Part shown: positions 14,301 through 16,478 of the stretch, piece after piece
Numbering within the stretch: the stretch's first letter is position 1
How the letters are laid out: every line of letters starts with the position of its first letter
NCBI GenBank assembly: GCA_964387845.1
Contig: CAYLXA010000007.1
Span: 1 to 64,000, forward strand
DNA: 64,000 bases
Direction of reading: 5' to 3'
From: an uncultured bacterium
GTDB lineage: Bacteria > Omnitrophota > Omnitrophia > Omnitrophales > Abzuiibacteriaceae
Notes under the pieces: generated by a model
The model's input: the letters and a program-made list of their open reading frames with translations, nothing else
The model's database searches: none
What the model was told of the DNA's origin: nothing
Made by a program: the position numbers and the translations under genes

Positions 14301-16478
14301 TTAGCTGACTTCAAACTTGAGATCAAGCAGCTCTTGATCCGAATCCATGTCCTTTGAAAATGGCGGAAAAGGTGAAAGCGATTTGACTGCTTCCGTAATA
14401 ATGCGCACCTCATGCTCGGATAAGCCGGTATCGCTGGCTACATAACTCAATTCAACAGCACCGCTTTTATCCACAATCAAAAAGAGTTCAAACTTTGCGG
14501 TCAATTTCTGAAACTCAGGCCTTTGGTTCAATACTTCGGCGATTGCCGCGTGTATCATCCCCCGATAGTATTCTCTTGCACGATGAGACGCCGGCAAAAT
14601 CTCGCCTCCTTGGGGCGTTAATTCCATGTAATCATTGACGCTACCCCGGTTCGGCAAAGACGCTATCGAAGAGTTTCGTGGGGCAATCATAAGCGGCTTT
14701 TCTTTGACGGGAGATTCCCAATAGGGTTCATCATTTAGGCGAAACGGCCCATGAGAAGTAGTGGATTGTGCCTTCAGAAAATCATAGCCGCCGACCTTGT
14801 CAAAATCGACCCATTCGCCCTGCTTATCTAAATATCGCTGCCGCTCCATGGAATCCGACTTCCCGTCGACGATGCGCGGCGTCAGAAACACCACAAGCTC
14901 CGTCTTATTAAAATCATTCGATTCTGTCCGGAATGCAGCGCCCACCCATGGAATATCACCCAAAAACGGAATCTTCTTCCTGGTTTTTCCGTGGCGGTCT
15001 TGCATTAGCCCGCCGATCACAACCGTGGCTCCATCCCGCGCAACCACAGTCGTTTCAAGTGTTTGGGTCGTCACAACCGGAACAACCGTACGGACAAAAG
15101 TCGCATCACTGCCTGATGCTGCGCCCTGCAATTGGAGCGGGTCGCCTGCCGTACTGACTTCGGGTTTCACTTTTAATACAACCGAGCGGTCTTCTGAGAT
15201 CGTGGGAACAACTGAAAGTGTGACGCCAACGTCGATAAACTGAACCTGGTCAGCAGTGGTCGACGTCGATTGGCTCTGGGAAACCGTTTGCGAAACAAAC
15301 GGCTGCCGGGTTGCAACTGCGAGCTTGGCTTCCTCATTATTCAAAACCAATAAACGCGGGCTCGATAAAATATTCGTCTTTCCGATATTTTGCAAAATAC
15401 TGATGACACTCTGAAAACTTGTCGGGTCGTTTTCACCGCCTTCTTCGCCGATGGTGAATGTACTTAAACTGCCGCCGCCAAGCGTCGATGACGGAGCTGA
15501 TACGGAAAAATTCGGCGCCGCATTAAACATTTTGGCATCGCCGAGCCTGCTTGCAACATAATTCCAATTCACACCGAACCTGTAAGCATCGAAAAGCTGG
15601 ACTTCAACCACCTTTGCATCAATCAAGACTTGAAGGGGCCGCACATCAAAAGCTTTTATGATTTTTGCAACCTGATCAACGTTTTCCTTGCGGTCGGTGA
15701 TAGAAACCTGATTAGTTCGTTTATCGATTTTAAGAAGCCCAGTGGTTGCAGTCAAAAAATCCTTTAATTGAGTTTCCAGATCGGCAACTTTAGCAAACTG
15801 AAGCGTAAAAACTTTGGTGACGAGCGGCTCATCAAAAGAGTTCACGGCCTCTTCAATTTCATCCAGAACTTCGGGCATATCCGTCACGATCACCGTGCTG
15901 GTTCGCTCATCCAGCGCGATCCGGCCGGATGTGCTTTTCATGGTTTGCAGCACGGTATTCATGGCTTGAGGATTGGCATATTTGAACTTAAAAGTCCGCG
16001 TTTCCCTTTCATCGCGAAATGGTTTTCCGAATTTTGATTCGTATTCCTTGTTACCCATCACGGTAATAATGCCGTCCTTTTCTTCATAAGCAAGCCCGAG
16101 CGTTTGAACCACAGTATCCAATGCCTTTCGGACTTCAACATCTTGAAGATACAGCGTGACGTCGCCCTTTACATCGCGCCCGGCAACAATATTAAGCCCG
16201 CTCCGCTTTGACAAAATTTTCAAAACATCTAAGACATTCACGCCTTTAAGTTCCAGCGTGATGGTTGAGGAGGTTATTCCGCGCGAAGTTGCACCAGAAG
16301 CTGTATAGTCAACCGGCGGCTGTGAGAAATTAGAAAAGGTTTCTTCCGAATCTGAATAAGAAGGAGGGCTGTTGGGATCTTGGGCAATCGCGAACGGAAT
16401 CGCCGGTAAACCGCTTAACATAAGACCAACGCTTAAGAAAAAAGCGAGCATGCGTGATTTCATTTTAGGTCTCCTCAA
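14301..16478 (-). CDS. gspD: T2SS secretin GspD with C-terminal extension (TonB_C-like?)
   Basis: Signal peptide, N0/N1/N2 domains (LKGVNVLDVLKILSKRSGLNIVAG) and a secretin core (VVIGGLMQDR...IPFLGDIPWVGAAFR...ELVVFLTPRIV) are present. A roughly 190-aa extra C-terminal tail follows. Confidence 0.9.
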   Translation of the reverse strand: MRRPKMKSRMLAFFLSVGLMLSGLPAIPFAIAQDPNSPPSYSDSEETFSNFSQPPVDYTASGATSRGITSSTITLELKGVNVLDVLKILSKRSGLNIVAGRDVKGDVTLYLQDVEVRKALDTVVQTLGLAYEEKDGIITVMGNKEYESKFGKPFRDERETRTFKFKYANPQAMNTVLQTMKSTSGRIALDERTSTVIVTDMPEVLDEIEEAVNSFDEPLVTKVFTLQFAKVADLETQLKDFLTATTGLLKIDKRTNQVSITDRKENVDQVAKIIKAFDVRPLQVLIDAKVVEVQLFDAYRFGVNWNYVASRLGDAKMFNAAPNFSVSAPSSTLGGGSLSTFTIGEEGGENDPTSFQSVISILQNIGKTNILSSPRLLVLNNEEAKLAVATRQPFVSQTVSQSQSTSTTADQVQFIDVGVTLSVVPTISEDRSVVLKVKPEVSTAGDPLQLQGAASGSDATFVRTVVPVVTTQTLETTVVARDGATVVIGGLMQDRHGKTRKKIPFLGDIPWVGAAFRTESNDFNKTELVVFLTPRIVDGKSDSMERQRYLDKQGEWVDFDKVGGYDFLKAQSTTSHGPFRLNDEPYWESPVKEKPLMIAPRNSSIASLPNRGSVNDYMELTPQGGEILPASHRAREYYRGMIHAAIAEVLNQRPEFQKLTAKFELFLIVDKSGAVELSYVASDTGLSEHEVRIITEAVKSLSPFPPFSKDMDSDQELLDLKFEVS

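What the first reader, a model, noticed from the sequence alone, without database searches (positions are those of the whole stretch)
14301..16478. Secretin GspD with a C-terminal TonB_C/TolA_C-like domain
After the canonical secretin core (…ELVVFLTPRIV) the protein continues for about 190 aa. The last 90 aa or so (YYRGMIHAAIAEVLNQRPEFQKLTAKFELFLIVDKSGAVELSYVASDTGLSEHEVRIITEAVKSLSPFPPF) fit the TonB C-terminal pattern (Y..A…G.V.V.F.I…G.V…V..SSG…LD.AA..AV….F.P). A TonB_C-like module on an outer-membrane secretin is unusual. The known STN/TonB-related domain of secretins is N-terminal. It could dock the secretin to peptidoglycan or to an inner-membrane partner in place of a pilotin S-domain.
Basis: inference. 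Interest (0 to 1): 0.6.

Follow-up and report, generated by a model that had tools for sequence, protein, structure and literature searches.

The report
Secretin with a TolA/TonB-type tail
An outer-membrane secretion pore from an uncultured Omnitrophota bacterium really does end in a small docking domain of the TolA/TonB type, normally found on inner-membrane proteins; a whole clade of related pores keeps it, but no paper found here describes it and its partner is unknown.

Summary
The ORF at 14301-16478 (minus strand, 725 aa) is a secretin: signal peptide, N0/STN-like domain, Secretin_N domains and a secretin core ending at residue 537. A 188-aa tail follows.

The window's own tail matches no Pfam, NCBIfam or PDB sequence. 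Its homologues do:
- 52 of the 119 full-length best secretin relatives, nearly all Omnitrophota where a source names the organism, carry the same terminal domain.
- Several of those domains exceed Pfam's cut-offs for TonB_2 or TonB_C.
- 24 of 39 hit NCBIfam tonB_Cterm.
- A profile of the family finds TonB C-terminal domains in the PDB (E about 1e-4).

The tail has three parts. First come 50 conserved residues in the S-domain position, present in all Omnitrophota secretins. Then comes a variable linker (29-172 aa across the clade). The last ~95 aa are the TolA/TonB-like domain. So the domain is an addition, not an S-domain replacement.

On a core tree the tailed secretins cluster, which suggests one gain and a few losses. 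The fusion is not an artefact.

The function is inferred: a passive periplasmic docking arm, not an energy transducer. I rate it a new variant of a known kind, of moderate interest.

The parts
14301..16478 (-). Secretin gene. It is 725 aa from the TTG at 16478, or 720 aa from the ATG at 16463 as in the public protein P0002. The stop codon is 14301-14303.
   Evidence: ORF list. Pfam Secretin 158 bits, Secretin_N 88 bits. 100% match to P0002.
16383..16478 (-). Signal peptide, residues 1-32, with a ...PFAIA|QDP cleavage-type site. There is no cysteine, so this is not a lipoprotein secretin.
   Evidence: Read directly from the translation. No signal-peptide predictor was run.
16059..16253 (-). N0/STN-like domain, residues 76-140. 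Both hits are below the Pfam cut-offs.
   Evidence: PF07660 STN at 21.2 bits (cut-off 28.4). PF21305 N0 at 15.4 bits (cut-off 27).
14865..15395 (-). Secretin core (beta-barrel and gate region), residues 362-538.
   Evidence: PF00263, E 1.8e-46, profile positions 2-169 of 169.
14715..14867 (-). Conserved proximal tail segment, residues 538-588, in the position of a secretin S-domain. Motif: E..(R/K)Y(L/F)D..G.L.DF(D/N).VGGYDF.KA...SQGPFR.DD.PYWE.
   Evidence: Present in tailed and short-tailed Omnitrophota secretins alike. E8, G26, G27 and P48 of the tail are nearly invariant. AlphaFold confidence is only 54-73 as a monomer. The S-domain equivalence is inferred from position.
14592..14714 (-). 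Linker, residues 589-629. Across orthologues its length and sequence vary: 29-172 aa from the PYW motif to the HMM domain start, median 71, and rich in P/E/K/Q/S/T/A.
   Evidence: Linker statistics. Lowest pLDDT in the model. Least conserved region of the protein.
14304..14591 (-). TolA/TonB-type C-terminal domain, residues 630-725. Topology: helix, two strands, helix, terminal strand. It carries a PFPPF(P/S) motif and ends at the protein's C-terminus.
16465..16995 (-). GspC-like gene (176 aa). It lies directly upstream of the secretin in all six related loci whose genes were listed.
   Evidence: Weak PF11356 T2SSC hit. A small ORF sits in the same position in L005, L006, L008, L009 and L010 and in L007; only the L006 one has a recorded weak T2SSC hit.
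5857..14291 (-). Rest of the T2SS-like operon, in order: gspF, a Peptidase_MA_2 gene, pseudopilin-like genes (H/I/J/K type), a 465-aa ORF with a PilN domain (GspL/M position), a 174-aa ORF in the PilO/GspM position with no family match, and gspE with an MshEN domain.
   Evidence: Pfam scans. Same order in L005 and L008.

Best explanation
The gene encodes the outer-membrane secretin of an Omnitrophota type II-secretion-like machine. An ancestor of one large clade of these secretins gained a TolA/TonB-type C-terminal domain.

In solved secretin structures (established knowledge) the C-terminus lies on the periplasmic side, against the outside of the barrel just below the outer membrane. Every subunit of the ring should therefore hang one small alpha-beta-beta-alpha-beta domain into the periplasm on a flexible tether. 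The tether is 41 aa here by the model, or 50 aa from the PYW motif to the HMM domain start; by that second measure it is 29-172 aa in relatives.

This is the reverse topology of TonB and TolA. Those proteins are anchored in the inner membrane and reach outwards.

Most likely mechanism (inferred): the domain works as TolA and TonB C-terminal domains do, binding a short extended peptide of a partner by adding it as a strand to the edge of its sheet. That would tie the secretin ring to a partner near the outer membrane or associated with the cell wall, helping placement, assembly or anchoring of the pore.

It cannot transduce energy as TonB does. The protein has no inner-membrane anchor to couple to ExbB/ExbD or TolQ/TolR.

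Shown: the domain's existence, fold class, homology, conservation and position. Inferred: periplasmic location, binding mode and role. The partner is unknown.
For: Real and conserved:
- The domain HMM hits 52 of the 119 full-length best homologues, always at the extreme C-terminus.
- It hits the secretin ORFs of L001, L002, L005 and L007-L010, and no other ORF in those loci or in the window.
- Tailed secretins cluster on a core-only NJ tree, with 6 parsimony steps, some of which involve fragments.
- Against close relatives the domain is 77-81% identical, the linker 51-70% and the core about 90%.

Homology:
- 19 of 36 tails hit Pfam TonB_2 and 12 of 36 hit TonB_C.
- Of 10 domains scanned, four exceed the TonB_2 cut-off (29.9, 24.4, 23.9 and 23.3 bits against 22). 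One of those four also exceeds the TonB_C cut-off (26.5 against 24.6). Profile coverage is nearly full length.
- NCBIfam: tonB_Cterm in 24 of 39, AgmX/PglI tail in 19 of 39, tolA_full in 8 of 39.
- The family profile against the PDB finds H. pylori TonB C-terminal domain at E 9e-5 to 2e-4, and 13 of the 17 listed matches are TonB.

Fold:
- The alignment-based AlphaFold model has pLDDT 84-94 over tail residues 90-188.
- Foldseek's top matches are HasB, TonB and TolA C-terminal domains, with target TM-score up to 0.66.
- Even the single-sequence model gave the same families.

Flexible tether: linker length and composition and low pLDDT.

Precedent: the TonB-like protein ExeB/GspB binds the periplasmic domains of the secretin ExeD and is needed for its assembly (PMC4098917).
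Against: - The window's own copy gives no direct hit in Pfam, NCBIfam or PDB sequences. Its assignment rests on transitive homology and on a predicted structure.
- Foldseek E-values are modest (1e-3 to 5e-2).
- No partner was identified. The only gene always next to the secretin is the gspC-like gene, which also accompanies secretins without the tail.
- No TonB-box-like motif could be shown.
- The periplasmic location and the strand-addition mechanism were not tested.
Confidence: 0.6

Rival explanations
1. Cell-wall anchor. The domain binds peptidoglycan directly and fixes the secretin ring to the sacculus. It would then do the job that AMIN domains do in PilQ, or that separate proteins (GspA/ExeA, TsaP, FimV) do for other secretins.
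For: - The short tether of 29-50 aa in many members keeps the domain near the outer membrane, where the wall lies.
- In this subclade the operon lies directly after mreBCD-PBP2-rodA.
- From memory, not checked here: one report (Kaserer et al. 2008) that the TonB C-terminal domain binds peptidoglycan.
- Peptidoglycan-dependent secretin assembly is established for ExeAB (PMC4098917).
Against: - No known peptidoglycan-binding family (LysM, SPOR, AMIN, OmpA_C, PG_binding) matched.
- The well-documented activity of this fold is protein-peptide docking.
- The elongasome synteny is absent from other tailed lineages (L009, L010).
Confidence: 0.2
2. Built-in GspB/ExeB-like assembly factor. The TonB-like domain binds the N0/STN domain, or the N-terminal extension, of its own or a neighbouring subunit. 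This would mirror TonB binding to receptors that carry the related STN domain, and would promote or stabilise ring assembly without a separate pilotin or GspAB.
For: - N0 is structurally related to the signalling domain of a TonB-dependent receptor, and ExeB (39% similar to TonB) binds the ExeD periplasmic domains (PMC4098917).
- Fusion of two domain types that interact in trans elsewhere is a classic hint of interaction.
- Tailed secretins have a somewhat longer segment before N0 (median 59.5 against 45.5 aa).
Against: - Geometry, from established secretin structures: N0 lies far below the barrel, while the shortest linkers are 29-50 aa.
- No motif before N0 specific to tailed secretins could be demonstrated.
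- The N0/STN hits of the window protein are themselves below cut-off.
Confidence: 0.12
3. Artefact. A frameshift, misassembly or read-through fused the secretin to a downstream TonB or TolA gene.
For: None found. One apparent stand-alone copy (P0128) first suggested separate genes.
Against: - The reading frame is continuous.
- The same architecture occurs in 52 orthologues from NCBI, JGI, ENA and Logan assemblies, at 40-83% identity to the window protein.
- P0128 is the end of a secretin gene interrupted by a run of N in the scaffold.
- No TonB-like gene lies next to the short-tailed secretin in L006, the one such locus examined.
Confidence: 0.01
4. Chance resemblance. The tail is an unrelated small alpha/beta domain that only looks like TonB_C.
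For: - There is no direct profile hit for the window copy.
- The fold is small and simple, and Foldseek E-values are weak.
Against: - Family members pass curated cut-offs of two Pfam families over nearly the full profile length.
- They also hit three TonB/TolA-type NCBIfam models.
- 13 of the 17 PDB sequence matches listed for the domain profile are TonB.
Confidence: 0.04

Closest known systems
TolA domain III and the TonB C-terminal domain (Pfam TonB_2 PF13103, TonB_C PF03544, TolA PF06519; PDB 4g7x, 2x9a, 1tol, 5lw8)
   Same: - Detectable sequence homology at family level.
- Sits at the extreme C-terminus after a flexible spacer that is often rich in Pro, Glu and Lys.
- Proline-rich motif after helix 2.
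   Different: - It is attached to an outer-membrane beta-barrel protein, not to an inner-membrane helix, so the topology is reversed.
- It cannot couple to ExbBD or TolQR.
- The window copy is too diverged for a direct Pfam hit.
- The family has its own PFPxFP and terminal ELxDLxF signatures.
GspB/ExeB, the 'TonB-like' secretin assembly factor of Aeromonas and Vibrio T2SS
   Same: A TonB-related periplasmic module functionally tied to a T2SS secretin. ExeB binds the periplasmic domains of ExeD and is required for secretin assembly (PMC4098917).
   Different: - ExeB is a separate inner-membrane protein that works with the peptidoglycan-binding ATPase ExeA.
- Here the module is fused to the secretin's C-terminus.
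- No gspA or gspB gene lies in the operon.
Secretin S-domain with pilotin (GspS/AspS type)
   Same: A C-terminal extension after the secretin core, on the periplasmic side, that serves targeting and assembly.
   Different: - The S-domain position is taken by a separate conserved 50-aa segment shared by all Omnitrophota secretins.
- The TolA/TonB-like domain is an extra module beyond it.
- No pilotin gene was seen in the operon.
Cell-wall-binding modules of secretin complexes (PilQ AMIN domains, TsaP LysM, FimV)
   Same: Accessory modules that tie a secretin ring to the cell envelope.
   Different: - Different folds.
- AMIN domains are N-terminal.
- None of these families matched here.
Myxococcus AgmX/PglI (GltJ/GltG) TonB-like C-terminal domain, NCBIfam NF033768
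   Same: 19 of 39 family members hit this model. It is another case of a TonB-type domain recruited to an envelope-spanning machine that is not a nutrient importer.
   Different: From memory, not checked here: those proteins are inner-membrane anchored, like TonB, and belong to the gliding motor.

Membership tests
Secretin (PF00263) | C-terminal secretin core domain above Pfam's gathering score | tested here: met
   158.3 bits against 27.5, profile positions 2-169 of 169.
Secretin (PF00263) | N-terminal ring-forming domains (Secretin_N/N1-N3 type) and an N0/STN domain | tested here: met
   Secretin_N at 87.6 bits in two stretches. The STN and N0 hits are only sub-threshold.
T2SS secretin GspD (NCBIfam TIGR02517 equivalog) | Score above the equivalog cut-off | tested here: not met
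   279.4 bits against a cut-off of 351.35. PilQ scores 262.3 against 284.35. The T2SS-like assignment rests on the operon: gspC-, F-, H/I/J/K-, L/M- and E-like genes.
TonB/TolA C-terminal domain (PF03544, PF13103, PF06519) | Profile match above the gathering score | tested here: inconclusive
   The window copy gives no hit even at E 10. Among 10 homologous domains scanned, four pass TonB_2 and one of those also passes TonB_C. 19 of 36 and 12 of 36 tails match at E below 0.1. Membership of the window copy is transitive, through its family alignment.
TonB/TolA C-terminal domain (PF03544, PF13103, PF06519) | Three-stranded antiparallel sheet packed against two helices (alpha-beta-beta-alpha-beta) | tested here: met
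   [not shown]
TonB/TolA C-terminal domain (PF03544, PF13103, PF06519) | Binds partner peptides (TonB box, TolB N-terminus) by strand addition | not testable with these tools
   No complex prediction was available and no partner is known.
TonB or TolA proteins (energy transducers) | N-terminal inner-membrane helix that couples to ExbB/ExbD or TolQ/TolR | tested here: not met
   The N-terminus is a cleavable signal peptide followed by secretin domains. The protein is not a TonB or TolA; it only carries their C-terminal domain.
TonB or TolA proteins (energy transducers) | Extended spacer between the anchor and the C-terminal domain | tested here: met
   Variable linker of 29-172 aa, with 40-70% P/E/K/Q/S/T/A. 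In the window it is 50 aa with 12% Pro.
Secretin S-domain | Short segment directly after the core that binds a pilotin or the neighbouring subunit | not testable with these tools
   A conserved 50-aa segment sits in that position. Its fold confidence is low as a monomer. No pilotin was identified.

The most novel reading that the evidence does not exclude
The fusion is a 'Rosetta stone'. It would show that TonB-type C-terminal domains and secretins are natural partners. On this reading the outer-membrane-anchored domain replaces the separate GspAB or pilotin systems by docking each subunit to the N0/STN region or to a wall-associated partner through strand addition. That gives a self-assembling, self-anchoring secretin in a phylum of ultra-small, host-dependent bacteria. 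It would also give direct support to the long-standing ExeB-N0 'TonB-like' hypothesis.
Probability: 0.15. Interest if true: 0.7.

Novelty: new variant of a known kind. Interest (0 to 1): 0.5.

Why it matters
How secretins are targeted, assembled and fixed in the envelope differs between systems: pilotins, GspAB, AMIN domains, lipidated secretins. A secretin clade with a TolA/TonB-type domain on a flexible periplasmic arm adds a further solution.

It also shows this domain working in reverse topology, anchored in the outer membrane and with no motor attached. That separates the domain's docking role from energy transduction.

Omnitrophota T2SS-like loci have been linked to giant surface proteins and a predatory or parasitic lifestyle (bioRxiv 10.1101/2023.11.21.568195). 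The feature therefore belongs to a machine of current interest.

Practically, public annotation calls these proteins only 'secretin N-terminal domain-containing protein'. The domain is missed in most members, including this one.

Tried and rejected
- Direct searches with the window's 189-aa tail or its last 94 aa found no TonB match in Pfam, NCBIfam or PDB sequences.
- The word-indexed search with the tail found one 108-aa fragment. The exhaustive phmmer search found 7 clusters: fragments or full secretins of the same family, plus one spurious repeat protein, P0125.
- The word-indexed search with the domain profile returned only 4 fragments. It gives no view of distribution beyond this family.
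- The search for related loci with the tail alignment failed because no stretch was conserved enough. With the full protein it gave only 4 loci. The exact look-up of P0002 found no contig on record.
- An apparent stand-alone copy, P0128, turned out to be a secretin gene broken by a scaffold gap.
- I considered the PD40 beta-propeller gene downstream of gspE (4403-5332) as a TolB-like partner. I rejected it because it is absent from the orthologous locus L005.
- I looked for a partner gene that co-occurs with the tail. Only the gspC-like gene is constant, and it also accompanies tail-less secretins.
- I looked for a tail-specific motif in the N-terminal segment before N0. A post-hoc pattern matched 10 of 52 tailed against 0 of 68 short-tailed secretins. 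An unbiased aromatic-residue count showed no difference (Fisher p = 1). I treat this as unsupported.
- The first AlphaFold run, without an alignment, gave a poor model (pLDDT 56). Its fold search is used only as weak corroboration.
- Literature searches found no description of the fusion.
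Full report
**1. What is at the coordinates**

The window holds an uninterrupted ORF at 14301..16478 on the minus strand, 725 aa from a TTG start. A public protein identical over 720 aa (P0002) starts at the ATG five codons further in.

Pfam finds a Secretin core at residues 362-538 (158 bits), Secretin_N (88 bits, two stretches) and sub-threshold STN/N0 hits at 76-140. NCBIfam scores it nearest GspD (279 bits) and PilQ (262 bits), but below both cut-offs.

The N-terminus reads as a signal peptide without a lipobox cysteine. The finding did not state the strand.

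**2. Surroundings**

The gene sits in a T2SS-like operon, all on the minus strand:
- a GspC-like gene (16465-16995)
- the secretin
- gspF (13047-14291)
- a Peptidase_MA_2 gene (12217-13041)
- four pilin-like genes with N_methyl, T2SSJ or T2SSK signatures
- a 465-aa ORF with a PilN domain (8109-9506) and a 174-aa ORF with no family match (7574-8098), in the GspL/M positions
- gspE with an MshEN domain (5857-7554)

Directly upstream on the same strand are mreB, mreC, mreD, PBP2 and rodA. The remaining genes scanned, up to about 40 kb, are housekeeping genes such as purine synthesis.

Where a source names the organism, nearly all the best homologues are Candidatus Omnitrophota/Omnitrophica; one is labelled Verrucomicrobiae.

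**3. Does the tail match TonB or TolA directly? No.**

The window's 189-aa tail, and its last 94 aa alone, give no TonB-type hit in Pfam, NCBIfam or PDB sequences, even at permissive thresholds. By eye the pattern fits only partly. The Tyr and the Gly of 'DKSG' are there, but the 'G.V.V.F' glycine is Ala and there is no 'SSG'.

**4. The tail is a conserved family feature**

Among the 120 best full-length homologues, 53 are at least 680 aa long, with 160-300 aa after the core. The others have 50-98 aa.

An HMM of the last ~95 aa hits 52 of the 119 full-length homologues, always at the extreme C-terminus. It also hits the secretin ORFs of loci L001, L002, L005 and L007-L010. It hits no other ORF in those loci or in the window.

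One apparently stand-alone copy is a secretin gene broken by a scaffold gap.

On a neighbour-joining tree built from the core only, the tailed proteins group together. There are six parsimony changes, and several of those involve truncated entries. This points to one gain and a few losses.

Against close relatives the domain is 77-81% identical. The linker is 51-70% and the core about 90%. A frameshift or assembly artefact is excluded.

**5. The family is homologous to TonB/TolA C-terminal domains**

- Scanning members one by one, 19 of 36 tails match Pfam TonB_2 and 12 of 36 match TonB_C at E below 0.1.
- Of ten domains examined in detail, four exceed the TonB_2 gathering score (29.9, 24.4, 23.9 and 23.3 bits against 22). 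One of those four also exceeds the TonB_C score (26.5 against 24.6). The matches cover almost the whole profile.
- In NCBIfam, 24 of 39 hit tonB_Cterm, 19 hit the AgmX/PglI TonB-like tail and 8 hit tolA_full.
- A profile of the family searched against all PDB sequences puts the H. pylori TonB C-terminal domain first (E 9e-5 to 2e-4). Thirteen of the 17 listed matches are TonB.

**6. Predicted structure**

With a 30-sequence alignment, AlphaFold gives pLDDT 84-94 for tail residues 90-188. The topology is helix (93-115), strand (124-133), strand (138-145), helix (151-164), strand (178-187).

Foldseek gives HasB, TonB and TolA C-terminal domains at the top, with probability 0.96-1.0 and target TM-score up to 0.66. 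A low-confidence model made without an alignment pointed the same way.

The domain looks slightly closer to TolA/TonB_2 than to classical TonB_C.

**7. Anatomy of the tail**

The first ~50 residues (538-588) carry a conserved motif: E..KYLD..G.L.DFD.VGGYDF.KA...SQGPFR.DD.PYWE. This motif is found in all Omnitrophota secretins examined, including those with short tails. It occupies the S-domain position.

A linker follows. Measured from the PYW motif to the HMM domain start it is 29-172 aa (median 71, 50 here). It is variable and enriched in P/E/K/Q/S/T/A, and it is modelled with low confidence. On the model's boundaries the window's linker is residues 589-629 (41 aa), because the first helix of the domain begins at residue 630.

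The TolA/TonB-like domain (630-725) comes last. So the domain was added beyond the S-domain position and does not replace it.

**8. Context across relatives**

The window's gene order, including the mreBCD-PBP2-rodA genes upstream and the Peptidase_MA_2 gene, recurs in L005 (80% identical secretin) and L008 (54%).

Another tailed lineage has the secretin in a T2SS-like operon beside a 1891-aa surface-type protein (L009). Another has only the small upstream ORF plus the secretin (L010).

A short-tailed secretin operon has no separate TonB-like gene nearby (L006). The only constant neighbour is the GspC-like gene, and it is not specific to tailed secretins.

No partner can be named from context.

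**9. Mechanism**

Shown: a real, conserved TolA/TonB-type domain at the C-terminus of a secretin, on a variable tether.

From established secretin structures, the C-terminus lies on the periplasmic side against the outside of the barrel. The domain should therefore hang into the periplasm close to the outer membrane, one per subunit.

From established knowledge of TonB and TolA, this fold binds short extended peptides by strand addition. The TonB box and the TolB N-terminus are the known examples.

My best explanation is a passive docking arm that ties the secretin ring to a partner near the outer membrane or the wall, aiding placement, assembly or anchoring. It cannot be an energy transducer, because the inner-membrane anchor that couples TonB and TolA to their motors is absent.

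The closest functional precedent is ExeB/GspB. It is a TonB-like inner-membrane protein that binds the periplasmic domains of the secretin ExeD and is required for its assembly. The authors proposed a TonB-receptor-like contact with the N0 domain (PMC4098917).

The main rivals:
- Direct peptidoglycan binding remains open.
- Binding in cis to N0 is less likely for the short linkers.
- Artefact and chance resemblance are both effectively excluded.

**10. Novelty**

Searches of the open literature found no description of a secretin with a TonB/TolA-type C-terminal domain.

Two Omnitrophota preprints mention T2SS-like loci, and one mentions isolated 'TonB C-terminal domain' flanking genes. Neither makes the connection.

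Automatic annotation has noticed it only sporadically. One JGI product name combines GspD and TonB, and one protein has a faint precomputed TonB_2 hit.

I could not survey domain-architecture databases, so occurrence outside Omnitrophota is untested. The one Elusimicrobiota and one gammaproteobacterial relative fetched lack the domain.

**Verdict:** a new variant of a known kind, of moderate interest.

Noticed in passing
window 16465-22333 (minus strand); L005 4088-12172; L008 3825-12262: The T2SS-like operon follows directly after the cell-elongation genes mreB-mreC-mreD-PBP2-rodA on the same strand. Only 73 bp separate rodA from the gspC-like gene. The same arrangement is kept in two relatives whose secretins are 80% and 54% identical. 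It is absent from other tailed lineages (L009, L010).
   Followed up: partly
window 12217-13041 (minus strand): A Peptidase_MA_2 (HExxH metalloprotease) gene with a signal peptide lies inside the operon, between gspF and the pilin-like genes. L006 and L009 have the major pseudopilin gene gspG in that place. No clear gspG was found in the window's operon.
   Followed up: partly
window 5857-7554 (minus strand): The secretion ATPase GspE carries an N-terminal MshEN domain, a known c-di-GMP-binding module. This suggests second-messenger control of the machine. The same is seen in L005, L006, L008 and L009.
   Followed up: no
window 943-5332 (minus strand): Three secreted-looking proteins lie downstream of gspE: a PD40 (TolB-like) beta-propeller of 309 aa, and two proteins with FlgD Ig-like domains (351 and 803 aa). 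They may be cargo. This gene set is not conserved in L005.
   Followed up: partly
window 16463-16478: The longest ORF starts at a TTG that overlaps the stop of the upstream gspC-like gene. The public protein P0002 starts at the ATG five codons downstream, which is the more likely start.
   Followed up: partly
window 14715-14867 (residues 538-588): A strongly conserved motif follows the secretin core in every Omnitrophota secretin examined, with or without the TonB-like domain: E..KYLD..G.L.DFD.VGGYDF.KA...SQGPFR.DD.PYWE. It matches no known family and may be a clade-specific S-domain.
   Followed up: partly
P0027 (702 aa) and L007 3581-5099: One long-tailed orthologue (P0027) lacks the terminal domain and ends in unrelated sequence, possibly through a frameshift. 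The L007 secretin gene is interrupted by a run of N, which creates a false 81-aa 'stand-alone' domain protein (P0128) in the public gene calls.
   Followed up: partly
window 39443-40330 (minus strand): This is a tyrosine recombinase of the XerC/D type (Phage_integrase plus the SAM-like N domain) among housekeeping genes. It is probably the chromosomal dimer-resolution enzyme rather than a mobile element.
   Followed up: no
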